A program made the translations under genes and the position numbers. From Verrucomicrobiia bacterium (lineage in GTDB: Bacteria > Verrucomicrobiota > Verrucomicrobiia > Limisphaerales > UBA9464), in contig JAHCBB010000006.1 in NCBI GenBank assembly GCA_019634635.1, positions 115,211 to 179,210 of the forward strand: 64,000 nucleotides of DNA, read 5' to 3'. The notes beneath the pieces were generated by a model. The model did not search any database and had not been told where the DNA came from. It was given only the letters and a program-made list of their open reading frames with translations. Positions 23,266-61,184 of this stretch are shown in pieces (position 1 is the first letter of the stretch; the number at the start of each line of letters is the position of its first letter).

Positions 23266-23441
23266 GAATCTGGCGGATCTCCGATGCCCGAACTTCCCGG
23301 CGGAACCAAGCCGGAAGTTGCCGGTGCGCCGGATTTTGAGTGCTTGATTTGGCGGGCGGAGCCGCCGACCGTGACGGCGCAATGGCCGGGGCCGGATCCC
23401 GGGTGCCGGCTGCTTGCGGTACCGTTTCATCGCCCCCATCC

Positions 23442-24353
23442 ATGAAAACGTCCGCCCTCCCCCCTGGACCCCCTGCCCGGATTCATCCGGGTTCACCCGC
23501 GTTCACCCTCATTGAGTTGCTGGTGGTCATTGCGATCATCGCCATCCTCGCCGGCATGCTCCTGCCGGCCCTTGGGCGTGCCAAGGATCGTGCCCAGCTC
23601 ACGGTGGATCTGAACAACGTGAAGCAGATCCTGCTGGCCAACCAGTTGTACGCCGCGGACAACAATGACTACAACGCCCACCCGACGTGGGGTGGGGATC
23701 TGAGCGGGCCGGATGGCTGGGTGTACGCGACGCGGAACAACGGCCGGATCCCGGGAGGTCCGCAGACACCCGGATCCGCGGCCGGCCGGGATGTCAACTC
23801 GCTGCAGTTCAGCAATCAGGTGGCCTTTTTCCGCATCAGCCAGCTCGGACCCTTCTTGGGATCCCACAAGGTGTGCTGGTGTCCGAAGGACGTCGCCACC
23901 CGGGGTTCCGGACGGCTGCGGACGCTCTGGCTGGCGCGTCCGTTGAAGCTGACCTCCTACTGTTGGAACGGCACCATTGGTGGCTACAACAACATCGGCC
24001 GGTCACCGCCGTTTGGTGACGGGCGCACCTACAAGATCAGCGACTTCCTGGCGACCGACTGGCAGCTCTGGGAGCAGAACGAGCTGGACCCCCTCAATTT
24101 CAACGATGCCTCCAACGTGCCGCCGCCCGGAAATGCGGGCAACGGGGTCTCGATCCGGCATGCCGGCTCCTCCGGCTGGGGCAGCTTCAATAATCCCAAC
24201 GGCCAGGGCACCGCCACCCGGTTCCCCGGCGGTGCGGTGGTGGGCACCTTTGGAGGCGCCGCCCAGCTCCAGAAGTGGAATTACTCCTACGACCTGATCA
24301 ATCGGATTCCCTTTCCGAACGACATTTTCAACGGGCCGATCTACCGGCGCTGA
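23442..24353 (+). CDS. prepilin-type N-terminal cleavage/methylation domain protein (DUF1559-like pseudopilin)
   Basis: Start set at ATG 23442 (MKTSALPP...). [33 protein letters not shown]. The C-terminal part is Asn/Gly/Trp-rich with [13 protein letters not shown]. Confidence 0.85.
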
Positions 24354-24423: not shown

Positions 24424-25245
24424 ATGTTGCGATCGGGAGCACTCGGAGGTTTTGGCGCCTGCAGTGTGGCATTGGCCGTGGCGGCTGGTGTGGTGCTGGG
24501 GCCGATGGGTTGTTCCACGGTTCCCGAGACGGGACGTCGTCAGTTGAACTTTCTGTCCTCGCAGGAGGAAATGCAGCTGGGGCTGACCGAGTTCAACAAG
24601 ATGAAGCAGGAGGTCCCGGTGTCGAAGGACCCCGATGGCAACGCGATGGTGCAGCGCGTCGGCCACCGGATTGCTGCGGTTGCCACCCTGCCCGATGCCC
24701 AGTGGGAATTCGTGCTCTTCGAGAGCCCTGAAGCCAACGCCTTTTGCCTGCCCGGGGGCAAGGTGGGCATCAACACGGGGATCCTTCCAATTTGTCAGGA
24801 CGACGCGGGGTTGGCGGCCGTGATGGGCCACGAGGTGGCGCATGCGGTTGCGCGGCACGGGGGCGAGCGGATGTCGCAAGCCCAGGCGATGGGGATCGCC
24901 GGACAGGTCGGCGCGGCGCTGATGGGCGGGTCGAAGTACGCCAGCTGGACGCCGGTCGTCACGCAGGCCTACGGAGTCGGCGCGCAATTGGGGGTGGCGC
25001 TTCCCCACAGCCGGTCCCAGGAGGCCGAGGCGGACGAGATCGGCATTCTCTACATGGCGCGGGCCGGTTACGATCCCAAGGCTGCGGTGGCGTTCTGGGA
25101 GCGGTTTGCCGAGTACAACCGAAGCCGCGGCGGCGCGAACACCGCGTGGTTCCTGAGCACGCATCCAACGGACGCCGCCCGCATTCGAAATTTGGAGTCG
25201 TTGCTGCCCCGGGCGGAGGCCGAATACCGGCCGGCGGGACCGTGA
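24424..25245 (+). CDS. M48 family zinc metallopeptidase, probable lipoprotein
   Basis: 273 aa. Signal with Cys (LGPMGCSTV). HEVAHAVARHG provides HExxH. The distal EADEIG motif is present. Confidence 0.85.
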   Translation: MLRSGALGGFGACSVALAVAAGVVLGPMGCSTVPETGRRQLNFLSSQEEMQLGLTEFNKMKQEVPVSKDPDGNAMVQRVGHRIAAVATLPDAQWEFVLFESPEANAFCLPGGKVGINTGILPICQDDAGLAAVMGHEVAHAVARHGGERMSQAQAMGIAGQVGAALMGGSKYASWTPVVTQAYGVGAQLGVALPHSRSQEAEADEIGILYMARAGYDPKAAVAFWERFAEYNRSRGGANTAWFLSTHPTDAARIRNLESLLPRAEAEYRPAGP

Positions 25246-25249
25246 GGGA

Positions 25250-25630
25250 TCGCCGCGCGCGAAGCGTCGTGGAGTGCGGTAGCCCTCTACCGCTTTCCCC
25301 CAGGGTTCAACGAACGCGGGAGGAGAAGGATGCGCCTCCGACGCGGAAGGAAGCCGCGGTGGCAAAGCGCCAGGGGGCTGGCGCAGTCCAAGACCTGGCG
25401 GCGTGCCGATGGCTTGTGGCGGTCGCGAAGCGTCGTGGAGTGCGGTAGCCCTCTACCGCTTTCCCCCAAGGTTCAACGAACGCAGGAGGTGAAGGATGCG
25501 CCCCCGCCGTGGAAGGAAGCCGCGGTGGCAAAGCGCCAGGGGGCTGGCGCAGTCCAAGACCTGGCGGCGTGCCGATGGTTTGTGGCGGTCGCGAAGCGTC
25601 GTGGAGTGCGGTAGCCCTCTACCGCTTTTC
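25250..25630 (+). repeat. 166-bp tandem repeat array, left block (2 full units plus a unit truncated after its first hairpin)
   Basis: The anchor gaagcgtcgtggagtgcggtagcc starts at 25261, 25427 and 25593, with exact 166-bp spacing. The third unit stops after ...ctaccgctttt. Confidence 0.95.
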
Positions 25631-25671
25631 AACGATAGCGGATCAGAGGGCTTGATGGCCATTGTCCCTCC

Positions 25672-26262
25672 ATGGTTGAGCTCAAGATCGCCTGGCCTCA
25701 CTCGCCAACCCATCAGCTTGCGACCGGCGGCACGTTTTTCGTCACGACGAGCACTTACCATAAGGATCACTATTTCTGCGGCGCTCAACGCCTCGGCGTG
25801 CTTCATCGTGGACTCCTCACGGTAGCGCGCGATCACGGCTGGCAACTCGAAGCCTGGGCGGTCTTTTCAAACCACTACCACTTTGTGGCCCATTCCCCGA
25901 TTGGCCAGCCTACTGCCGAAGACCTCAGCCGGATGTTGAAAACATTGCATGTGAGGACTTCGGGATGGTGCAACCGTCTGGATCGCACGCCGGGTCGACA
26001 GGTGTGGTTCAATTTCCGTGAGACACGACTGACCTATCAGAAGTCCTATTTCGCGCGGCTGAACTACACGCACCAAAACCCCGTGAAGCACGGCCTGGTG
26101 CCGGCGGCCGACCAGTATCCGTGGTGTTCCGCCGCATGGTTTGAGCGAACCGCCTCGCCAGCGCAGGTGAAGACGATCTACCGGTTCAGGACGGAAAAGC
26201 TGCAGGTTTACGACGATTTCGAACCATCTCCCGACTGGCGGATCGGCATCCATGCCTCGTGA
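25672..26262 (+). CDS. REP-associated tyrosine transposase (RAYT; IS200/IS605-type Y1 HUH enzyme)
   Basis: 196 aa, ATG start. HUH motif in AVFSNHYHFVAH. Catalytic-Tyr motif LNYTHQNPVKHGLV. The gene is bracketed within a few nt by REP-like hairpins. Confidence 0.8.
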   Translation: MVELKIAWPHSPTHQLATGGTFFVTTSTYHKDHYFCGAQRLGVLHRGLLTVARDHGWQLEAWAVFSNHYHFVAHSPIGQPTAEDLSRMLKTLHVRTSGWCNRLDRTPGRQVWFNFRETRLTYQKSYFARLNYTHQNPVKHGLVPAADQYPWCSAAWFERTASPAQVKTIYRFRTEKLQVYDDFEPSPDWRIGIHAS

Positions 26263-27140
26263 TTCGCGAAGCGTCGTGGAGTGCGGTAGCCCCCTACCGC
26301 TTTCCCCCAGGGTTCAACGAACGCGGGAGGTGAAGGATGCGCCCCCGACGTGGAAGGAAGCCGCGGTGGCAAAGCGCCAGGGGGCTGGCGCAGTCCAAGA
26401 CCTGGCGGCGTGCCGATGGCTTGTGGGGGTCGCGAAGCGTCGTGGAGTGCGGTAGCCCTCTACCGCTTTCCCCCAGGGTTCAACGAACGCGGGAGGTGAA
26501 GGATGCGCCCCCGCCGTGGAAGGAAGCCGCGGTGGCAAAGCGCCAGGGGGCTGGCGCAGTCCAAGACCTGGCGGCGTGCCGATGGCTTGTGGGGGTCGCG
26601 AAGCGTCGTGGAGTGCGGTAGCCCTCTACCGCTTTCCCCCGGGGTTCAACGAACGCGGGAGGTGAAGGATGCGCCCCCGACGCGGAAGGACGCCGCGGTG
26701 GCAAAGCGCCAAGGGGCTGGCGCAGTCCAAGACCTGGCGGCGTGCCGATGGCTTGTGGGGGTCGCGAAGCGTCGTGGAGTGCGGTAGCCCTCTACCGCTT
26801 TCCCCCGGGGTTCAACGAACGGGGGAGGAGAAGGATGCGCCCCCGACGCGGAAGGACGCCGCGGTGGCAAAGCGCCAGGGGGCTGGCGCAGTCCAAGACC
26901 TGGCGGCGTGCCGATGGCTTGTGGGGATCGCGAAGCGTCGTGGAGTGCGGTAGCCCTCTACCGCTTTCCCCCAGGGTTCAACGAACGCAGGAGGAGAAGG
27001 ATGCGCCCCCGACGTGGAAGGACGCCGCGGTGGTAAAGCGCCAGGGGGCTGGCGCAGTCCAAGACCTGGCGGCGTGTCGATGGCTTGTGGGGGTCGCGAA
27101 GCGTCGTGGAGTGCGGTAGCCCTCTACCGCTTTCCCCCCA
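26263..27140 (+). repeat. 166-bp tandem repeat array, right block (5 full units plus a truncated unit)
   Basis: Anchor starts at 26268, 26434, 26600, 26766, 26932 and 27098, all exactly 166 bp apart. The last unit keeps only the first hairpin. Differences between units are a few point changes in the inter-hairpin spacer. Confidence 0.95.
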
Positions 27141-27198
27141 GGCCTTCCCAATCTGCCGCTTGACCCGGCGCTTGCCGGTTCCGTGTCGGTTCGCACCG

Positions 27199-27237
27199 AA
27201 AGCGGTGGAGGGCCGCCGCACTCCACGGCGCTCCGCG
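27199..27237 (-). repeat. solitary inverted REP-like element (variant of hairpin A) at the array edge
   Basis: aaagcggtggagggccgccgcactccacggcgctccgcg closely matches the reverse complement of hairpin-A regions (aaagcggtagagggctaccgcactccacgacgcttcgcg). It lies 17 bp from the tgt stop. Confidence 0.8.
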
Positions 27238-27253
27238 CATTCCCGCCTCCAGT

Positions 27254-28438
<1,185 letters not shown>

Positions 28439-28561: not shown

Positions 28562-29392
28562 ATGATTGCTTCCCTCAGAACTTCGATCCGCCCACGGGTT
28601 CGCTCGGGTTTCACCCTGATCGAGCTCCTCGTGGTCATTGCCATCATCGCGATTCTCGCCGGCATGCTCCTGCCGGCCCTGGCCAAGGCGAAAACCAAGG
28701 CGCAGGGCATCATGTGCATGAACAACGGCAAGCAGTTGATGCTCGCTTGGAAGCTGTATTCGGGGGACCACAATGACGTTCTGGTTTCCTCGCTGACGAT
28801 GAATCCGAATCCATTGCGCCGGGTGATCTGGATTGAAGGCAACCTGGATTTCACAAGCCGGGACAATACCAACAACCGCTTCATCACCAACGGGCCGCTG
28901 TTCAAGTATGCCGGGGGGTCGTTCGCCGTGTACAAGTGTCCGGCCGATCGGGCCGCGAACGGCAAGATCGCCCGGGCCCAGAATGCGACGCCGCGCATTC
29001 GCAGCATCTCGATGAGTCAGGTGTTCGACTTCGGTGGCTGGTTGCCTGCAGCCCGGTATCGGACCTACGAGCGTGACTCCGACATCGTCAATCCAGCGCA
29101 GACCTTCGTCTTTGTGGATGAACATCCCGACAGCATCAATGACGCGGCTTTCGCGGTTCAAATGGTGGAGGATGACGCCCGCACTGGAAACATCATTGAC
29201 ATGCCCGCTGCCTACCACAACGGCGCCGCCGGATTCGCCTTCGCCGACGGCCACTCGGAGGTCCACCGCTGGGTGGGAAGTGTGATCAAGCCTCCCGTCC
29301 GGTACAACGGACAGGTGGCGTTGAACATTCCCGCGGGGAATTCGCTGAATGATGCGAAGTGGATGTCGCGAAACACGACGGTACGCCGGTGA
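28562..29392 (+). CDS. prepilin-type N-terminal cleavage/methylation domain protein (DUF1559-like, H-X9-DG motif)
   Basis: 276 aa. [34 protein letters not shown]-terminal [21 protein letters not shown]. Confidence 0.85.
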
Positions 29393-55324: not shown

Positions 55325-57319
55325 TCAGGTGTGATGTCCGGGCGCGGCGCCTGGAGCCTCGTCGCCCAGACCCCGCAGCAGGGCCTCTTGTTCGGCAGGG
55401 GGCCGGCGGGCGATTTCCGCCGCAAGGCCATCAATCAACGCCTCACGCATCTGATCGAGTGCGACCGCGAACCGGGCGACCACGGGATTTCGAAACAGCG
55501 TTGCGGGCGGTATGTCGAACCCGAGGTGGGGTTGCAGCCGGTTGAGCACCCGGGTCGCGCGCAGCGAGTCGCCACCCAGTGCGAAGAAGTTGTCCATCCG
55601 CCCGACGCGCGGTTGTTCCAGCACCGCGGCAAATGCCCCGGCCACCTGTTGTTCCATCGGGGTCGCGGGTTCGGCGAAGGGCGCGGACAGCGCCGCGGCG
55701 AAGCGGTCGGCAAGGCCCGTCCGCTGGAGCTTTCCCGTCGCCCCCTTGGGCAGGGCTTCAACGAGGAGGATCCGGCCGGGCACCTTGAACGCCGGCAATC
55801 GGCCGAACGCGTGGAGGCGCAGGGCCTCCTCGGTGAGGCGCGCTCCCGGTTGCGGAACGACGGCGGCTGCCACGTCCTCACCCAGCGTGGGGTGCGGCAC
55901 CGCAAACGCGACCGCCTCGGCCACCCCGTCAACGGCGAGCAGCACCTCGTCCACTTCGCGTGGTGCGATCTTTTCGCCCCCGCGGTTGATGAGGTCCTTC
56001 AACCGGCCGGTGAGGAACAGGTAGCCGTCGGCGTCGAGACGCCCCTGGTCCCCGGTTCGAAACCATCCGCCAACCCATGCCGTTGCGTTGTCTGTGGCCT
56101 CCTCGTAGCCGCGGGTGACGGACGGACCACGAATGACGACCTCACCCACGACCTCGGGCGGCAGGAGGTCCCCGGCGGGGCCCAGGATCGCCACTTCCGG
56201 GCCGGCGGCGGGTCCGACCGATCCGGGTTTGCGCGGGCGGGGAGGCAGGGGATTGCTCGCCATCTGGTGCGCGGCCTCCGTCATGCCGTACGACTCAATG
56301 ACCGGCACACCGAACGTCTCCTCCAATCCCATCATCAGGCTTGGGGGCAGCGCGGCCGAGGAGGAGCGGATGAGACGGAGCGTGTGGCGTCCGCCGGGCC
56401 CCCCGGCGGCCCGTACCCGGGACAGGATCGTTTGATGAAGGGTGGGTACTGCCGAGTACCAGGTGGGTTCCCATTGCTTCAGGGCGTCGAGAAATGCGTC
56501 GGCATCCGGCCGATCCGGGCAGACCACGCTGCCCGCCGATACGATCGGGGCGAGCAGGCCCGCGACCAGGCCGTGAATGTGGAAAAGCGGCATCAGGTTG
56601 AGGCATCGGTCGTCGGGTCCGAGCCGGAGGGTTTCGCCAATGGCCCGGGCCGACGCCAGCAGGTTGGCCTGCGTGAGCGGAACTCGCTTGGGTCGCGACG
56701 TGGTGCCCGAAGTGTGCAGCACCAGGGCCACATCCTCCGCCGATCCGGGCGTCCCCGACACGACCGGGGTCGGTGGCGCTTCCGGCAGGGAAAGCGAGGG
56801 GAACCGGGCGGGGTCCGATCGAAGCCGGAGGACCTCGATGCCCAGCCGGATCGCGAGGTCCCGGGCGGTGTCCGACTCCGCAAAAGCATCCGAGGCGATC
56901 AGACGGCGCGCCCCGAGGCTTTGCAGTTGAAACTCGAGGTCGGCGGGCGGCGCCTGGGAGTTGACGGGGGCGGCCACGGACCAGGAGGCCACGGCGAGAA
57001 AGGCCAGCGCCAGCTCCGGACCTTGCGGAATTGCCAGCGCCACCCGGTCCTGCGGTCCGATGCCCAGGCGACGCAATGTGGCGCCGAACTCCGCAACGAA
57101 ATCCCAGAGGCGATCGTACGACAGCGGCTCCCGGTGGGGGCCCAGCACTGCGGAACGGCCGGGGTGTTGAAGGGCGGTGCTGGACAGCACCGCTGCCAGG
57201 GAGGTCTCCGGGTTGAGGCCGGTGATGGGATCCCGCGCCGGGGGAACCTGCGAGGTGGGTGATGCCGAAGGCGTGCGGTCCACCCGGAGGAGCCTATGGG
57301 GTTTCCGATTCCGGCGCAT
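55325..57319 (-). CDS. adenylation (AMP-binding) domain fused to a peptidyl/acyl carrier protein domain (A-T didomain)
   Basis: Contains LHTSGTTSRPKRV and TGDQGRLDADGYLFLTGRLKDLINRGGEKI. The carrier site is FFALGGDSLRATRV. The start is uncertain: ATG candidates at 57415, 57379, 57355 and 57319, of which I list 57319. Confidence 0.85.
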   Translation of the reverse strand: MRRNRKPHRLLRVDRTPSASPTSQVPPARDPITGLNPETSLAAVLSSTALQHPGRSAVLGPHREPLSYDRLWDFVAEFGATLRRLGIGPQDRVALAIPQGPELALAFLAVASWSVAAPVNSQAPPADLEFQLQSLGARRLIASDAFAESDTARDLAIRLGIEVLRLRSDPARFPSLSLPEAPPTPVVSGTPGSAEDVALVLHTSGTTSRPKRVPLTQANLLASARAIGETLRLGPDDRCLNLMPLFHIHGLVAGLLAPIVSAGSVVCPDRPDADAFLDALKQWEPTWYSAVPTLHQTILSRVRAAGGPGGRHTLRLIRSSSAALPPSLMMGLEETFGVPVIESYGMTEAAHQMASNPLPPRPRKPGSVGPAAGPEVAILGPAGDLLPPEVVGEVVIRGPSVTRGYEEATDNATAWVGGWFRTGDQGRLDADGYLFLTGRLKDLINRGGEKIAPREVDEVLLAVDGVAEAVAFAVPHPTLGEDVAAAVVPQPGARLTEEALRLHAFGRLPAFKVPGRILLVEALPKGATGKLQRTGLADRFAAALSAPFAEPATPMEQQVAGAFAAVLEQPRVGRMDNFFALGGDSLRATRVLNRLQPHLGFDIPPATLFRNPVVARFAVALDQMREALIDGLAAEIARRPPAEQEALLRGLGDEAPGAAPGHHT

Positions 57320-57548
57320 CCACGGAATGCCCTTCGCCACGCGCGCGCTTGCCATCGGGGACTTGAGCCATGGAACCATCACGCGCTTCGCGGCGATGAA
57401 CGATCTCAGCGGCAAGGTGCTTCAATTCCAGAAGAGGCGGCACCGGCATCAGGAATGGATCCGGTTTCTGGGAGGCAAGGATCCTGCTTGACTTTCCTTC
57501 GCGGATGGCAGCAACTCGTTTCGACAACCTCAAACCGAACGTGAACTT

Positions 57549-57623
57549 CCCCGGCCCGACCTCTCCCCGGCCCGACCTCTCCCCGGCCCGACCTCTCCCC
57601 GGCCCGACCTCTCCCCGGCCCGA
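57549..57623. repeat. perfect 16-bp tandem repeat, 4 full copies plus an 11-nt partial copy
   Basis: ccccggcccgacctct occurs at 57549, 57565, 57581 and 57597, then ccccggcccga at 57613-57623. No mismatches. Confidence 0.97.
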
Positions 57624-57755: not shown

Positions 57756-60700
57756 GTGAACGAGTGGCTCGATCAGACGAATGCGCTTCCGAATCTGACG
57801 ATCTACTTCCTCCCTGGAGACTACATGGTGGGTGGCACCAACAAGGGCCATACTAGCACCTCGGACGCGATCTGGATCAAGGGAAACACCAACCGAATCG
57901 TGCGCCTTGTGGGCATTCCCGACGCCAACGGCATTCGTCCACGGCTGGTGTTGGGGCCGCGGTCAGACACCAATAGCTGGCCCAATGAAAATTCCGCCCA
58001 CCAGTGGTTGATTCGCGTTGGTGCCTCAGGGACTCCCCTTAAGAACTTCTACCTCGACACCATCCAGGTCGAGAACCTCGTCCTGGATGGCAACTTTGGG
58101 GGCTTGGGAGCGTGGACCTCAGAGGCCAACGCCGGCGGCTATAAATCCTTTGCCCTCGATCTGGCGGCTTTCCGAGGCAGGGTTCGCAACGTCCTCATCC
58201 AGAACTTCGGTTCCGTCGGAAAGGTTCCCCTATCCCATCTCGACGGATTCGGGGGTGTGGAGGGATTCCCGGTTTTCATCCATACCTTTGATGACGGACA
58301 GGCCAATTTTCCGGGTGCCCCCGCGCCCTGGATCATCGAGGACGTCGAGGTTTCGAATTTCGGGGCACTCCATGCGGGATACTCGACAATCCTCATGCCC
58401 CACGTGTACCGAAATTCCAATGCACCCAGCACCACCCCGGTGGCCATCGTAAGACGATGCCAGGTGCGGGGCAATCCACGAACCATCGGGTCGGGCACCG
58501 GAGGTCGCTCGAGCGAATACCCCACGATCGCCAACTGGACCAATCACGCGGCCTTTACCGCCTCGGGCCGGATTCTCTTTGAGGACAATGTCTTCCTCAA
58601 CGTGGGCAGCGGGTTCAATTTGGACACCGGGACCCTCGGACCGCTGGTTTGGAACAACAACGCGTTTCTGGATGCAACGGTGCTTGGCTTTTTGGGAATT
58701 CCGGACAATTGGGGAGACCCCACCCAGAGGGGCCTCTTCGTCACCAACAACCTCATCCGGCTCGCGGGAAGAAATTTTCACCAGAATTACAGCGACATCT
58801 GCATAAACGATCCCGAAACCGCCCAGACCAACCCGAACTTGGGGCTGGGCCGGATCGAGACCAACGACTGCCATGGTCTCATCATCCGCGGTCGTGCGGG
58901 CGATGTGCATTTTCAGCACAACGACCTGACCACCTGGCCCCTGGCCAGCTTTTTCCGCCCAGATCCGGGTAACAGCGGGCAGTCCGTTTTCCGCCCCATC
59001 TGGAAGATTCCGACACTGTCGAACATCAACTGTTCCATTTATTCGCGGACCCGGGAGCCGGTGACCAACATGGTGCTCACCGCCAACCGGCTCTCGACGG
59101 TTGGCTATGACGTCACCAGTCCGACCCTTCTGCCCACCGCGACGTACGCATCCTTCACCCCCACATCGGCACCCCTGTACAACGACCTCCGAACCGCTGT
59201 ATCGCCCTCACCGGGCGGCTTCCAGCCTGCCGGCCGCCTGGAGCGGGTCGGCATGATCACCAATGGCTCCGGCCGCCTGACGGCCGTCCGGGAAGTGCAG
59301 ATCGGCCAGACCTCGTACTCAACCACCAACAACGGCACCCTCACGGTCGTCGTCCGAGTCGCCGATCAGCGCCTGGCTGCCGGTGGGGTGACCGGAACGC
59401 TGCCGGTTTCCGGGGTCTCGTTGAGACTGACCAACGCCATCATTCACCCCAATGGGAGCGTCACCAGCCATCTCATCGCGCAGACCAGCACCAACAATGG
59501 AACGGCAACGTTCACCCTCTCCAATCTGGCCGGGATCCACGGGATGTGCCGCCTGGCGGCCTTTGCGGATCTGGGAGCCGCCAACGGGCTGCTGGATCCC
59601 GATCGCGATGCCTGGTCCAGCCACAGTTTTCCCCTGGGAACAACGGTTGAACTGACCGCAAGTCCGGACGTGGGCGATGACAAGAATACGGCCTCCGCAA
59701 AGCGGGCCCGCATCCGCGTGCGTCGCAGCGGTCCCACCAGCAGCTCCCTTTCGGTCAACCTCTCCCTCCATTCGGGCGTGTTCGTTCGTCCCAACAATTT
59801 GAGCGATCTTGCGGCGACCTACGGGACTTCGGGCACCGCCGATTACTACATTTCCAACGGCACCGGCACCTGGTCCACCAGCAGCCCGTTCACCAACGGC
59901 ACCATCACCATCCCGGCGGGCAGCGACACCGCGGACGTGCAGATCGTCACCCGTGAGGACAACCTGACCGAGCAGAACATCATCGTGGCCCGCCTGGCCC
60001 TCTCTGCAAACTACGCGCCCGGGCTGTCCACCAACGTGCATGTCCTGATCTTTGACGGGCCGATGTGGACCCTCAAAGAGCTTTCCACTGATAACTCCGG
60101 ATACTATACAATTAATTCCCAAGCATACGCTCTGAATGACCTCAACGGGAGCACCCAACCCCGGGCGGCTGGTTTCGGTGATTTCGGCACCCTCAGCGGT
60201 ACCAACCTGATCTATGTTGCCTCGCGAGGAGGCCACTGGCAGCTTCCAAACGTGGCGTTCAACCCCATTGAGGATATGCAGTACTATGGGATCAGCACCG
60301 CCCCAATTCACCTGGTAGGGGGGGTGGGAAGCAATGCGCGCGTCCGGGTGCTTGGAGGTTCCGCAACTAATCTGCCCCACCTCTCCAGCGGTCCGAGCAC
60401 CGCATGGGGCATTGTCTCCAATGCAGCCTTGATCGTCGGGAGGAGCCGCAATGCGAACTCCACAAGTCGTCCAACCACCTGGGTGTGGGCCTCAACAAAC
60501 ACGGGCTATACACCGTTTGATGTCGGAGGCAATCTTAACAGTAGTTGGCCCGGGGAGGCATATGGCGCAAATTTAAACAACCAGGTAATCGGAGAACTTC
60601 GTGTGACCTACCAGAGCGGCCTGTCGAACTACGTGGCATTTCGCAGCCAAGCAGGCACGAGCGTCAAGGGCCTTGAGTTTAATCCGTCCGACGGTGCCGG

Positions 60701-61184
60701 CGATATTTTAAGAGCCCCCGGAACGAGTGGGGGTCAGAATCTCAAATCCAGAGGCACAGCGGTCAATAGTTCGGGTCACGCAGTGGGGTGGTATGAAACC
60801 GACTCGGCAGTAAGACGGGCGGTCTATTGGCCGAGTTCTGGATTGGGATCCCAGTCCAGTTCATTGGATCTTAATGCTTGGAAAGCTCGTATTGGTACAT
60901 CTGAAGACTCCCGAAGTTCTGCAAACGCCATCTCCAGTTCTGGTTGGATTGCAGGCTGGTCAAATACAAATAATTCACCTGGAAGAGCAGTGCTCAAAAG
61001 AAGTCCAAACGCCAGTGCGACCGACTGGGTTGATTTGAATGACCCGCACTTCACTCATGCCCCAAGTGGATGGATTCTGAAGGACGCGTCAGGCATAAAT
61101 GCCTCGGGCCAAATTGTCGGGAATGGGTTGTTTAATGGAAGCCAGCGCGCGTTTGTATTAATTCCAAGGACCTCTGGAAATTAG
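57756..61184 (+). CDS. large secreted/surface protein: N-terminal right-handed beta-helix-like region, central Calx-beta-like segment, C-terminal HAF-type repeats; 5' end unresolved
   Basis: 1142-aa track ORF from GTG 57756. The frame stays open upstream to 57492 and encodes a signal-peptide core at 57621-57689, but there is no in-frame start there. C-terminal repeats (AYALNDLNG, AYGANLNNQVIGE, GTAVNSSGHAVGW, ASGINASGQIVGNG...RAFVL) resemble the HAF extracellular repeat. Confidence 0.75.
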   Translation: MNEWLDQTNALPNLTIYFLPGDYMVGGTNKGHTSTSDAIWIKGNTNRIVRLVGIPDANGIRPRLVLGPRSDTNSWPNENSAHQWLIRVGASGTPLKNFYLDTIQVENLVLDGNFGGLGAWTSEANAGGYKSFALDLAAFRGRVRNVLIQNFGSVGKVPLSHLDGFGGVEGFPVFIHTFDDGQANFPGAPAPWIIEDVEVSNFGALHAGYSTILMPHVYRNSNAPSTTPVAIVRRCQVRGNPRTIGSGTGGRSSEYPTIANWTNHAAFTASGRILFEDNVFLNVGSGFNLDTGTLGPLVWNNNAFLDATVLGFLGIPDNWGDPTQRGLFVTNNLIRLAGRNFHQNYSDICINDPETAQTNPNLGLGRIETNDCHGLIIRGRAGDVHFQHNDLTTWPLASFFRPDPGNSGQSVFRPIWKIPTLSNINCSIYSRTREPVTNMVLTANRLSTVGYDVTSPTLLPTATYASFTPTSAPLYNDLRTAVSPSPGGFQPAGRLERVGMITNGSGRLTAVREVQIGQTSYSTTNNGTLTVVVRVADQRLAAGGVTGTLPVSGVSLRLTNAIIHPNGSVTSHLIAQTSTNNGTATFTLSNLAGIHGMCRLAAFADLGAANGLLDPDRDAWSSHSFPLGTTVELTASPDVGDDKNTASAKRARIRVRRSGPTSSSLSVNLSLHSGVFVRPNNLSDLAATYGTSGTADYYISNGTGTWSTSSPFTNGTITIPAGSDTADVQIVTREDNLTEQNIIVARLALSANYAPGLSTNVHVLIFDGPMWTLKELSTDNSGYYTINSQAYALNDLNGSTQPRAAGFGDFGTLSGTNLIYVASRGGHWQLPNVAFNPIEDMQYYGISTAPIHLVGGVGSNARVRVLGGSATNLPHLSSGPSTAWGIVSNAALIVGRSRNANSTSRPTTWVWASTNTGYTPFDVGGNLNSSWPGEAYGANLNNQVIGELRVTYQSGLSNYVAFRSQAGTSVKGLEFNPSDGAGDILRAPGTSGGQNLKSRGTAVNSSGHAVGWYETDSAVRRAVYWPSSGLGSQSSSLDLNAWKARIGTSEDSRSSANAISSSGWIAGWSNTNNSPGRAVLKRSPNASATDWVDLNDPHFTHAPSGWILKDASGINASGQIVGNGLFNGSQRAFVLIPRTSGN

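What the first reader, a model, noticed from the sequence alone, without database searches (positions are those of the whole stretch)
25250..27237. RAYT-type HUH transposase gene embedded in a strictly 166-bp-periodic tandem array of REP-like hairpin doublets
**Array.** A repeat unit begins right after the M48 peptidase stop (25245). Its anchor (gaagcgtcgtggagtgcgg) starts at 25261, 25427 and 25593, then at 26268, 26434, 26600, 26766, 26932 and 27098. Within each block every spacing is exactly 166 bp. That gives 7 full units, plus 2 units truncated after their first ~40 bp.

**Interruption.** The only break is 25631-26262, which carries ORF 25672..26262 (196 aa). It has NHYHFVAH (an HUH motif) and YTHQNPVKHGLV (catalytic Tyr followed by NPV). 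Together these are the signature of IS200/IS605 Y1 transposases of the REP-associated (RAYT) kind. The gene replaces the distal ~126 bp of one unit, and a hairpin-A element sits within ~40 bp upstream and ~5 bp downstream of it.

**Non-coding.** 166 is not divisible by 3. The 74-125-aa ORFs in the track on both strands simply run through ~1.7 units, so the array is non-coding.

**Why it stands out.** Known REP/BIME-RAYT loci, as I recall them from Enterobacteria and Pseudomonas, have a RAYT flanked by a few inverted REPs. A long head-to-tail array in fixed register with the RAYT inside one unit is not an arrangement I know to be described, especially in a PVC-type genome.
Basis: partly seen in the sequence, partly recalled or inferred. 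Interest (0 to 1): 0.75.

Follow-up and report, generated by a model that had tools for sequence, protein, structure and literature searches.

The report
RAYT transposase inside a REP/BIME array
A domesticated-type hairpin-cutting transposase gene (RAYT) sits in a 166-bp tandem array of its own paired hairpin repeats in a Verrucomicrobia genome; the same layout is already described around E. coli rayT, so this is a real, long, but ordinary example.

Summary
Seven full 166-bp units and two truncated ones flank a 196-aa ORF.

The ORF is a RAYT/TnpA(REP)-type Y1 HUH enzyme:
- NCBIfam REP_Tyr_transpos gives E 4.8e-22, 1.6 bits under its cutoff.
- A profile hit to E. coli TnpA(REP), PDB 4ER8, gives 1e-13.
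- 4ER8 is also the best fold match of the AlphaFold2 model.
- All RAYT signature residues are present.
- Pfam Y1_Tnp itself is missed (14 bits).

Each 166-bp unit is a doublet of two REP subtypes in opposite orientation: A on the + strand and B on the - strand, with compensatory stem changes between them. That is a BIME-2-like module.

The novelty claim fails:
- Nunvar et al. 2010 report E. coli rayT flanked by BIME-2 on both sides, and one third of RAYTs sitting in BIMEs.
- I confirmed a 101-bp tandem unit starting the base after the E. coli K-12 rayT stop.
- Seven homologous Verrucomicrobiota loci show the same A/B layout. One has 8.6 units of 163 bp.

Verdict: a new member of a known kind, with low to moderate interest.

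The parts
25258..25630 (+). Left array block. It has two full 166-bp units (starting 25258 and 25424) and a truncated unit (25590-25630) that consists of REP A only. It begins 13 nt after the M48 peptidase stop.
   Evidence: TRF period 166, 2.2 copies, 96% matches. Unit listing.
25672..26262 (+). RAYT / TnpA(REP)-type Y1 HUH transposase gene, 196 aa. Signature residues are T25, H68-Y69-H70, Y132 and N136-P-V-K-H-G. It is annotated at NCBI as hypothetical protein KF791_06155.
   Evidence: ORF and translation. NF047646: E 4.8e-22, 78.4 bits against a cutoff of 80. 4ER8: E 4.9e-7 with the single sequence and 1.1e-13 with the profile. AF2 model pLDDT 89, best PDB fold match 4ER8_A at E 1.4e-8. Conserved columns. 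Database identity.
26265..27138 (+). Right array block. It has five full 166-bp units (starting 26265, 26431, 26597, 26763 and 26929) and a truncated unit (27095-27138). It starts 2 nt after the RAYT stop codon.
   Evidence: TRF period 166, 5.3 copies, 97% matches. Unit listing and variable-site table.
25258..27138 (+). Nine REP A copies on the + strand, at 25258-25301, 25424-25467, 25590-25633, 26265-26308, 26431-26474, 26597-26640, 26763-26806, 26929-26972 and 27095-27138. The core is CGTC-GTGG-AGT, then stem GCGGTAG, loop CCCT, stem CTACCGC, then TTT.
   Evidence: nhmmer with the REP profile, E about 1e-10 each. Exact-pattern hits.
25360..27071 (-). Seven REP B copies on the - strand, at 25360-25400, 25526-25566, 26367-26407, 26533-26573, 26699-26739, 26865-26905 and 27031-27071. 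The core on the - strand is GTC-TTGG-ACT, then stem GCGCCAG, loop CCCC, stem CTGGCGC, then TTT. Relative to A, two stem pairs carry compensatory changes.
   Evidence: nhmmer E about 1e-7. 79% complementary to A, 61 nt apart. Aligned sequences.
27197..27237 (-). Terminal inverted REP A'. With the last REP A (27095-27134) it forms a REPIN-like hairpin with 40-nt arms and a 63-nt spacer. It ends 16 nt before the stop codon of the convergent tgt gene.
   Evidence: Inverted repeat I1, 88% complementary. Folds as ssDNA at -51.6 kcal/mol, z = -6.8. nhmmer E 2.5e-8.
24424..25245 (+). Left boundary gene: an M48 family metallopeptidase. This is context, not part of the element. The array lies in its 3' flank.
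   Evidence: PF01435, E 1.2e-41.
27254..28432 (-). Right boundary gene: queuine tRNA-ribosyltransferase (tgt), convergent with the RAYT gene. This is context, not part of the element.
   Evidence: PF01702, E 9e-154.

Best explanation
This is a REPtron, meaning a RAYT gene together with its cognate REPs, in a Verrucomicrobiota genome. The REPs around the gene are amplified into a BIME-2-like array.

**What the sequence shows.**
- The 196-aa protein has the fold and catalytic residues of a Y1 HUH single-strand DNA transposase of the TnpA(REP) kind.
- The repeats are 7-bp-stem, 4-nt-loop hairpins with a conserved 5' head and a TTT tail.
- Two stem subtypes, A and B, alternate in orientation.
- One A plus one B with their two spacers make the 166-bp module. 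It is repeated head to tail on both sides of the gene.

**What is inferred, by analogy with the E. coli, Stenotrophomonas and Marinomonas enzymes.**
- The protein binds the folded REP on single-stranded DNA.
- It uses the head as a guide and cleaves and rejoins nearby through a 5'-phosphotyrosine link.
- This activity seeds and mobilises REP doublets.
- It acts preferentially in cis, next to its own gene.

**How the array grew (also inferred).** The module copy number then grew by local duplication, through unequal exchange or slippage, possibly started by RAYT nicks. Conversion keeps the two sides of the gene alike.

**Possible side effect.** Because the array lies after M48 and between convergent genes, it may also act as a 3'-UTR stabiliser or terminator, as shown for E. 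coli REP325.
For: **Protein.**
- NF047646 REP_Tyr_transpos gives E 4.8e-22. All 25 diverse family members hit it, and 19 of 25 hit PF01797.
- A profile search of the PDB gives 4ER8 TnpA(REP) at 1.1e-13, then ISDra2 TnpA at about 5e-3.
- The AF2 model has pLDDT 89. Its best fold hit is 4ER8_A (E 1.4e-8), followed by IS608, ISDra2 and IS200 transposases.
- T25, HYH, Y132 and the NPVKHG motif are conserved across the family. These are the RAYT signatures listed by Nunvar 2010.

**REPs.**
- The window holds 17 copies in strict A(+)/B(-) alternation.
- In 193 distinct REPs from 85 species-level genomes, the three stem pairs left free in the search pattern are 95-97% paired. They switch GC/CG, CG/TA and AT/GC.
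- Variable sites number 3 in 91 nt of REP cores against 13 in 75 nt of spacers, Fisher p = 0.003.

**Same layout elsewhere.**
- L121, L122, L123, L135, L136 and L137 all have the RAYT flanked by A/B REPs, with periods of 153-172 bp.
- L137 has 163 bp x 4.7 copies upstream and x 3.9 downstream.
- L135 has 169 bp x 3.1 copies.

**Dispersal.**
- RAYT-less doublets and clusters occur in relatives (L121 3025-3461, L123 793-883, L133, L001-L120).
- A relative at 94% nucleotide identity has an exact REP A 27 nt after the M48 stop.

**Known precedent.** See (literature; E. coli rayT locus; REP325).
Against: - The Pfam Y1_Tnp model does not reach threshold (14.4 bits against 23). The NCBIfam score is 1.6 bits under its curated cutoff.
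- No REP lies outside the locus in the 64-kb window. Abundance and dispersal in the source genome itself are therefore unproven, and the source assembly could not be reached.
- The REPs nearest the gene on each side are both A(+). They are direct repeats, not the inverted pair Nunvar's definition stresses. The nearest inverted partners are about 65 nt upstream and about 105 nt downstream.
- The head is GTGG in A but TTGG in B and in most relatives, and it is separated from the stem by 3 nt. It is not the canonical GTAG.
- No biochemical evidence exists for this clade.
- Homologues lie in different gene neighbourhoods in each genome. Vertical, housekeeping-like inheritance is therefore not shown.
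Confidence: 0.85

Rival explanations
1. The array is kept mainly for a host function. Candidates are an mRNA 3'-end stabiliser or partial terminator for M48, for the RAYT gene and for the convergent tgt, or a binding array for nucleoid proteins or gyrase. On this view the RAYT is only the historical source of the hairpins. This overlaps with the best explanation rather than excluding it.
For: - The array lies directly after the M48 stop and between convergent genes. That is the position typical of E. coli REPs.
- E. coli REP325, a 12-hairpin BIME, stabilises the upstream mRNA and attenuates read-through.
- REP cores are more conserved than spacers.
- Module length stays at 153-172 bp in different genomes although spacer sequences differ.
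Against: - The simple terminator scan does not pick up the REP hairpins, whose tail is only TTT.
- Relatives at 79% M48 identity have no REP after M48 at all, so the gene does not need it.
- Conservation of REP cores is equally expected if the RAYT selects them.
- No expression data are available.
Confidence: 0.25
2. The ORF is an ordinary autonomous IS200/IS605-type insertion sequence that happened to land in a pre-existing satellite array. The repeats would then not be its substrates.
For: - The gene interrupts an otherwise periodic array.
- Homologues sit in different neighbourhoods in different genomes.
- 8 of 25 family members also hit the IS200 NCBIfam model weakly.
Against: - The same two REP subtypes flank the gene in seven independent loci, with lineage-specific spacers. 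Chance landing would not reproduce that.
- There is only one copy in the window and no tnpB.
- The best sequence and fold matches are TnpA(REP), not IS200 or IS608.
- The RAYT-specific Thr and NPVKHG motifs are present.
Confidence: 0.04
3. The number of units is an assembly artefact. A real REP cluster of one to three units would have been inflated by the assembler.
For: - Short-read assemblies of relatives show only 1-3 units or break at the REPs. L127 ends inside the first B, 152 nt after M48.
- No reads were available to me.
Against: - Units differ at 16 sites, with neighbour-shared variants.
- Contigs with names typical of long-read assemblers show arrays of comparable or larger size around orthologous genes. 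L137 has 8.6 units and L135 has 3.1 units upstream plus further REPs downstream.
- The source contig is 209 kb long.
Confidence: 0.07
4. The 166-bp units encode a repeated peptide or a structured RNA gene.
For: ORFs of 74-125 aa run through the units on both strands.
Against: - 166 is not a multiple of 3, so every frame changes from unit to unit and the ORFs stop after about 1.7 units.
- No Rfam family matches, apart from a chance miRNA hit at E 0.49.
- The A-B doublet fold scores only z = -1.9.
- Spacers are not conserved between genomes.
Confidence: 0.02

Closest known systems
E. coli REPtron: rayT (yafM, TnpA(REP)) flanked by BIME-2 arrays of Y and Z2 REPs
   Same: - The transposase has the same fold and the same catalytic and RAYT-specific residues.
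- The gene is bounded on both sides by its REPs.
- Two REP subtypes alternate in orientation.
- The modules are repeated head to tail. In K-12 a 101-bp unit repeated twice starts the base after the rayT stop, and a diverged copy lies upstream.
- The association is stated in PMC2817692.
   Different: - The period is 166 bp rather than 101 bp.
- There are 7 full units (17 REPs) rather than about 3.
- Units on the two sides of the gene are 93-98% alike, against 61% in E. coli.
- The stem is a perfect 7-bp stem, whereas the E. coli REP stem is bulged.
- The head is (G/T)TGG plus 3 nt rather than GTAG abutting the stem.
- The protein shares only about 22% identity with the E. coli enzyme.
- The host is a verrucomicrobium rather than an enterobacterium.
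E. coli REP325 (a BIME-2 cluster without a RAYT)
   Same: It is a long tandem array of two-hairpin modules: 12 hairpins in six units over 577 bp, lying in a 3' intergenic position.
   Different: It has no transposase gene inside and a shorter module. Its function has been tested experimentally (mRNA stabilisation and partial Rho-dependent termination). Nothing has been tested here.
REPIN-RAYT systems of Pseudomonas (Group 3 RAYTs) and Stenotrophomonas BIMEs
   Same: - Inverted REP doublets form long hairpins. The terminal A/A' pair here has z = -6.8.
- Doublets are dispersed in relatives.
- BIMEs have lineage-specific inter-REP segments.
- Modified REPs keep their palindromic character.
- One S. 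maltophilia rayT sits directly in a BIME.
   Different: - Pseudomonas REPINs are mostly isolated doublets of one REP type rather than arrays.
- REP families there are species-specific. Here, the degenerate pattern built on the REP core, with 7 positions left free, matches exactly in at least 85 species-level genomes.
IS200/IS605 family insertion sequences (IS608, ISDra2)
   Same: The fold is the Y1 HUH fold, and the substrate logic of a hairpin plus a guide sequence on single-stranded DNA is shared.
   Different: Those are multi-copy autonomous elements with distinct left and right ends, often carrying tnpB. Here there is a single gene, no tnpB, and hairpins that far outnumber the gene.

Membership tests
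RAYT / TnpA(REP) (REP-associated tyrosine transposase) | HUH motif and nucleophilic tyrosine of Y1 transposases | tested here: met
   H68-Y69-H70 and Y132 are present. Y69 and H70 are invariant, and H68 and Y132 are conserved in at least 90% of 25 diverse homologues.
RAYT / TnpA(REP) (REP-associated tyrosine transposase) | RAYT-specific residues: a conserved Thr near the N-terminus and an NP(L/V)(R/K)xG motif next to the tyrosine (Nunvar 2010) | tested here: met
   T25 is invariant. The sequence Y132-T-H-Q-N136-P-V-K-H140-G is present, with N136 and H140 invariant.
RAYT / TnpA(REP) (REP-associated tyrosine transposase) | Scores above the curated cutoff of the family HMM (NCBIfam NF047646, equivalog) | tested here: inconclusive
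   The score is 78.4 bits against a cutoff of 80, with E 4.8e-22 and 140 of 146 profile positions covered. All 25 homologues match, with a best E of 4.8e-28.
RAYT / TnpA(REP) (REP-associated tyrosine transposase) | Pfam Y1_Tnp (PF01797) domain.
   The score is 14.4 bits, E 0.043, against a gathering cutoff of 23. 19 of 25 homologues do hit at E <= 0.01, with a best E of 8e-9, so the miss reflects divergence of this sequence.
RAYT / TnpA(REP) (REP-associated tyrosine transposase) | Fold of the solved TnpA(REP) structure | tested here: met
   The AF2 model has pLDDT 89.1 and pTM 0.85. The top Foldseek PDB hit is 4ER8_A, with E 1.4e-8 and a TM-score of 0.68 normalised to the target. The sequence profile hits 4ER8 at 1.1e-13.
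RAYT / TnpA(REP) (REP-associated tyrosine transposase) | Gene delimited by REPs, including a pair in inverted orientation | tested here: met
   REP A(+) ends 41 nt before the ATG, and another REP A(+) starts 2 nt after the stop. Inverted B(-) copies lie at 25526-25566 and 26367-26407. One caveat applies: the two nearest REPs are direct repeats, not inverted.
RAYT / TnpA(REP) (REP-associated tyrosine transposase) | Cognate REPs over-represented and dispersed in the host genome | not testable with these tools
   In the 64-kb window, all 17 REPs lie at the locus. In related genomes the REPs are dispersed, with up to 6 separate contigs per genome in a truncated scan and RAYT-less clusters.
RAYT / TnpA(REP) (REP-associated tyrosine transposase) | Single or low copy number per genome, with vertical inheritance | not testable with these tools
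   The window holds one copy. Homologues lie in non-syntenic contexts, but those genomes are distant, at 70-83% protein identity.
RAYT / TnpA(REP) (REP-associated tyrosine transposase) | Binds and cleaves single-stranded REP in vitro | not testable with these tools
   This needs purified protein. The precedent is in PMC8266576.
REP (repetitive extragenic palindrome) | Short GC-rich palindrome able to form a stem-loop, maintained by compensatory change | tested here: met
   The stem is 7 bp and the loop 4 nt. A and B differ by two compensatory pairs. Across 193 distinct REPs, the three unconstrained pairs are 95-97% paired and each takes two or more pair types.
REP (repetitive extragenic palindrome) | GT(A/G)G head immediately 5' of the palindrome | tested here: inconclusive
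   A and A' carry GTGG, while B and most relatives carry TTGG. In all of them, 3 nt (AGT or ACT) separate the head from the stem. Spacers of 2 nt between head and stem are known in Pseudomonas, Xanthomonas and Marinomonas.
REP (repetitive extragenic palindrome) | Extragenic location | tested here: met
   All copies lie between the M48 stop (25245) and the tgt stop (27254), outside the RAYT ORF.
BIME (bacterial interspersed mosaic element, BIME-2 type) | Regularly spaced REPs in alternating orientation, with basic modules joined head to tail | tested here: met
   Alternation is strictly A(+)/B(-). The gaps are 61 nt from A to B and about 23 nt from B to A. The period is exactly 166 bp with no indels.
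BIME (bacterial interspersed mosaic element, BIME-2 type) | Two REP subtypes alternate, as Y and Z2 do in E. coli | tested here: met
   The A stem is GCGGTAG/CTACCGC and the B stem is GCGCCAG/CTGGCGC. The same two types occur in the homologous loci.
BIME (bacterial interspersed mosaic element, BIME-2 type) | Binding of gyrase, IHF or Pol I | not testable with these tools
   This is a biochemical property.
IS200/IS605 autonomous insertion sequence | Multi-copy element with distinct left and right end hairpins, often with tnpB | tested here: not met
   The window holds one copy. The same REP type lies on both sides. No neighbouring tnpB-like ORF was seen.
CRISPR array | Short repeats separated by unique spacers | tested here: not met
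   The whole 166-bp unit, spacers included, is repeated at 96-97% identity.

The most novel reading that the evidence does not exclude
The RAYT-centred arrays of this Verrucomicrobiota clade would be produced by the enzyme itself acting in cis. That corresponds to Nunvar's rolling-circle BIME model or a related copy mechanism, rather than to passive recombination. The clade would also be a distinct RAYT group whose dimorphic REP pair, with a non-GTAG head, has stayed almost unchanged across a large part of a phylum. The facts behind this reading:
- In each lineage the array has its own spacer sequences, yet the units on both sides of the gene are nearly identical.
- The largest clusters seen are always at the RAYT.
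- The degenerate REP pattern, with 7 positions left free, matches exactly in at least 85 species-level genomes. REPs of Proteobacteria are described as species-specific.
Probability: 0.2. Interest if true: 0.45.

Novelty: new member of a known kind. Interest (0 to 1): 0.22.

Why it matters
**Annotation.** NCBI calls the gene a hypothetical protein, and Pfam misses it. It should be labelled a RAYT. The 94-125-aa ORFs that run through the array are spurious. The array also explains contig breaks in short-read MAGs of relatives.

**Biology.** It adds a clear REPtron/BIME example outside Proteobacteria. The arrays are long and on both sides of the gene, and their units are near-identical. Together with L137 and L135, this would be good material for testing how BIMEs are amplified and whether the RAYT acts in cis.

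It does not reveal a new kind of system.

Tried and rejected
- **RAYT ends captured into the unit.** I looked for homology between the RAYT 5' leader or 3' end and the unit spacers, since Nunvar reported rayt 3' ends captured into BIMEs. Local alignments were no better than shuffles (523 of 2000 and 1285 of 2000 shuffles scored as high). Rejected.
- **Rfam.** A scan of 25000-27500 at E <= 1 gave only a chance plant miRNA hit at E 0.49.
- **Promoters and terminators.** No sigma-70-like promoter was found. The two terminator-like sites match the shuffle expectation and are not the REP hairpins.
- **Source contig.** The exact RAYT protein is not on record in the assembly index, so the genome-wide REP count in the source organism could not be obtained.
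- **Exact 28-nt REP A.** It does not occur in the 126 loci held at that point. L127, fetched later, carries it.
- **Exact 32-nt REP A in JGI metagenomes.** Only one contig matched (L133). It carries a RAYT-less A/B doublet.
- **Empty-site test.** Relatives at 79% M48 identity have a different downstream gene (an RND membrane-fusion protein), so no clean empty site could be defined. An 84% relative has no REP within 290 nt after M48.
- **Strict structural period.** Periods in relatives range from 153 to 172 bp, so no exact length constraint exists.
- **CGTC-tagged REP superfamily (Di Nocera 2013).** REP A does contain CGTC, but it lies 7 nt from the stem, and the stem and tail features of CGTC families are absent.
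Full report
**1.

Tandem Repeats Finder reports a 166-bp period at 25258-25628 (2.2 copies, 96% matches, no indels) and at 26264-27138 (5.3 copies, 97%). A tenth copy lies on the minus strand at 27199-27226. Shuffled sequence gives none.

Seven full units start at 25258, 25424, 26265, 26431, 26597, 26763 and 26929. Truncated units start at 25590 and 27095. The gap between the two blocks holds ORF 25672..26262 (196 aa), which contains NHYHFVAH and YTHQNPVKHGLV.

The locus lies between an M48 peptidase gene (stop at 25245) and a convergent tgt gene (stop at 27254). Because 166 is not a multiple of 3, the ORFs that cross the units stop after about 1.7 units.

**2. Anatomy of the unit**

Each unit contains two related hairpin elements in opposite orientation.
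- REP A lies on the + strand: CGTC-GTGG-AGT, stem GCGGTAG, loop CCCT, stem CTACCGC, then TTT.
- REP B lies on the - strand, 61 nt further on: GTC-TTGG-ACT, stem GCGCCAG, loop CCCC, stem CTGGCGC, then TTT.
- B keeps the 7-bp stem through two compensatory pair changes relative to A.

A profile built from A, B and A' finds 17 copies in the window: 9 A, 7 B and 1 A'. All lie between 25258 and 27237, and the rest of the 64 kb has none.

The array does not simply stop at 27138. After a 63-nt spacer, an inverted REP A' (27197-27237) pairs with the last A. Together they form a hairpin with 40-nt arms (88% complementary; -51.6 kcal/mol as ssDNA; z = -6.8). This is a REPIN-like doublet. The A-B doublet inside a unit also pairs, but imperfectly (z = -1.9).

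The seven full units differ at 16 sites. Only 3 of those fall in the 91 nt of REP cores, against 13 in the 75 nt of spacers (Fisher p = 0.003). Adjacent units are the most alike: 2 differences between 26265 and 26431, and 4 between 26597 and 26763. This pattern fits stepwise local duplication with constraint or homogenisation on the hairpins. It is not what a collapsed or looped assembly would give.

**3. The protein**

| Test | Result |
|---|---|
| Pfam Y1_Tnp (PF01797) | 14.4 bits, E 0.043, cutoff 23: below threshold |
| NCBIfam NF047646 REP_Tyr_transpos | 78.4 bits, E 4.8e-22, 140 of 146 positions, cutoff 80 |
| Single sequence against the PDB | E. coli TnpA(REP) 4ER8, E 4.9e-7 |
| Profile of 25 diverse homologues against the PDB | 4ER8 at 1.1e-13; ISDra2 TnpA at about 5e-3 |
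| The same 25 homologues against family models | 25 of 25 match NF047646; 19 of 25 match PF01797 |
| AlphaFold2 model (pLDDT 89, pTM 0.85) against the PDB | best match 4ER8_A, E 1.4e-8; then IS608, ISDra2 and IS200 transposases |

The residues that Nunvar et al. give as RAYT signatures are all present: the N-terminal Thr, the HUH motif, the Tyr, and NP(L/V)(R/K)xG. Here they are T25, H68-Y69-H70, Y132 and N136-P-V-K-H-G, and they are conserved in the family.

The family is large. There are more than 5400 close homologues, mostly 189 aa, from Verrucomicrobiota MAGs. Some are already labelled "REP-associated tyrosine transposase" by JGI. At the 50% identity level, 1863 clusters match at E <= 1e-3. 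The window protein itself is NCBI [quoted passage not shown], on a 209-kb contig. Only one copy lies in the window.

**4. Related loci**

I examined seven homologous RAYT loci (70-83% protein identity). None is syntenic with the window, and none with each other. In every one, the gene is flanked by the same two REP subtypes in alternation, with a period of 153-172 bp.

Two contigs with names typical of long-read assemblers have strictly periodic arrays:
- L137 has a 163-bp unit, 4.7 copies upstream and 3.9 downstream of the gene. That totals 18 REPs, more than in the window.
- L135 has a 169-bp unit, 3.1 copies upstream, with further REPs downstream.

Aligning units from the different genomes shows conserved REP A and REP B cores but unrelated spacers. 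Each array was therefore amplified or homogenised within its own lineage, yet on both sides of the gene.

The REPs also occur away from any RAYT:
- a six-REP cluster in L121;
- a doublet in L123;
- a doublet in a JGI metagenome contig;
- at least 120 loci from 85 species-representative genomes that match a degenerate core pattern in a truncated scan. Nearly all are labelled Verrucomicrobiota, and up to six contigs come from one genome.

In those 120 loci, REPs are mostly singletons (46) and doublets (81). All clusters of five or more seen in any fetched locus sit in the RAYT-bearing loci, at the RAYT or within about 2.5 kb of it.

Among 193 distinct REPs, the three stem pairs that the search pattern left free are 95-97% paired. 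They switch between GC/CG, CG/TA and AT/GC. This is strong covariation support for the hairpin.

A relative with 94% nucleotide identity to the window across M48 has an exact REP A 27 nt after the M48 stop and then a REP B. Its short-read contig ends there. A REP cluster therefore exists at this site in an independent assembly.

**5. Comparison with what is known**

Nunvar et al. 2010 (PMC2817692) defined RAYTs and reported several points that bear directly on the finding:
- E. coli rayT is delimited by Y and Z2 REPs and is "flanked by BIME-2 on both sides".
- One third of RAYTs are directly associated with BIMEs.
- Modified REPs in BIMEs keep their palindromes by complementary mutation.
- REPs accumulate near rayt genes.

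I checked the E. coli K-12 locus directly. A 101-bp unit is repeated twice (93% identity), starting at the base after the rayT stop. A 61% copy lies upstream. E. coli REP325 is a 12-hairpin, six-unit array. REPs in the verrucomicrobium Opitutus terrae were reported by Di Nocera et al. 2013.

Only details differ here:
- a longer module (166 bp against 101 bp);
- more copies;
- units almost equally similar on both sides of the gene;
- a perfect 7-bp stem;
- a head that is (G/T)TGG, set 3 nt from the stem, rather than GTAG abutting it;
- the host phylum.

**6. Mechanism**

*Shown:*
- The fold and catalytic residues are those of a Y1 HUH enzyme of the TnpA(REP) kind.
- Hairpin repeats with covarying stems flank the gene.
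- The modules are BIME-like.
- The same REPs are dispersed in relatives.

*Inferred from the E. coli, S. maltophilia and Marinomonas enzymes (PMC8266576):*
- The protein binds the folded REP on single-stranded DNA.
- It uses the 5' head as a guide and cleaves and rejoins nearby through a phosphotyrosine intermediate.
- This activity creates and mobilises REP doublets, preferentially near its own gene.

*Array growth.* Local duplication is supported by the neighbour-similarity pattern. Whether the RAYT catalyses it, as in Nunvar's rolling-circle model, or recombination and slippage do, cannot be decided here.

*Possible role in transcription.* A secondary 3'-UTR role is plausible from the array's position and from the REP325 work. 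It is untested.

**7. Limits**

- The source genome beyond the 64-kb window could not be reached, so REP abundance and RAYT copy number in that organism are unknown.
- The array copy number rests on the assembly alone.
- Placement among Bertels' RAYT groups was not possible without reference sequences.

**Verdict**

This is a new, well-developed member of a known kind.

Noticed in passing
window 57548-57623: A perfect 16-bp tandem repeat, TCCCCGGCCCGACCTC x 4.8 at 100% identity. It lies in the 340-bp gap between divergent genes 55325..57415 (-) and 57756..61184 (+). The period is not a multiple of 3. It could be a slippage-prone promoter spacer.
   Followed up: partly
L001-L120 (genome-contig scan): The degenerate pattern built on the REP core (KTGGASTGCG-N3-GCCC-N-C-N3-CGCTTT, 7 positions left free) matches exactly in at least 85 species-level genomes, nearly all Verrucomicrobiota. 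REP families in Proteobacteria are described as species-specific, so this breadth of conservation is notable.
   Followed up: partly
L020, L022, L030, L040, L055, L061, L077, L096, L097, L112, L116 and others: Some REP-bearing contigs belong to MAGs labelled Klebsiella sp., Bifidobacterium sp., Bifidobacteriaceae, Proteobacteria, Haliangiales, Limnocylindrales, Chthonomonas or Acidoferrum. These labels are probably wrong, or the contigs mis-binned, rather than true hosts.
   Followed up: no
L137 9843-10266: A 12-bp unit, GGTTCCGACAAA, is repeated 35 times at 95% identity inside a called 178-aa gene, about 4 kb downstream of the RAYT array in a related genome.
   Followed up: no
L137 4270-5004, and window ORFs at 25330-25614, 26337-26621 and others: Gene callers place ORFs through the REP arrays. 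In L137 a 244-aa gene was called across the upstream array and overlaps the RAYT start. Such repeat-derived ORFs are likely to be spurious proteins in public databases.
   Followed up: no
L127 (1540 bp) and L128 (6229 bp): The short-read contig of the closest relative (L127) ends 152 nt after the M48 stop, inside the first REP B. L128 ends 290 nt after its M48 stop, with no REP detected in that stretch. The L127 break shows how these arrays fragment short-read MAG assemblies.
   Followed up: partly
window 23340-24353 and 28562-29392: Both neighbours beyond M48 and tgt encode proteins with a prepilin-type N-terminal methylation motif ([24 protein letters not shown]). This is typical of PVC genomes and fits the Verrucomicrobiota assignment.
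   Followed up: no
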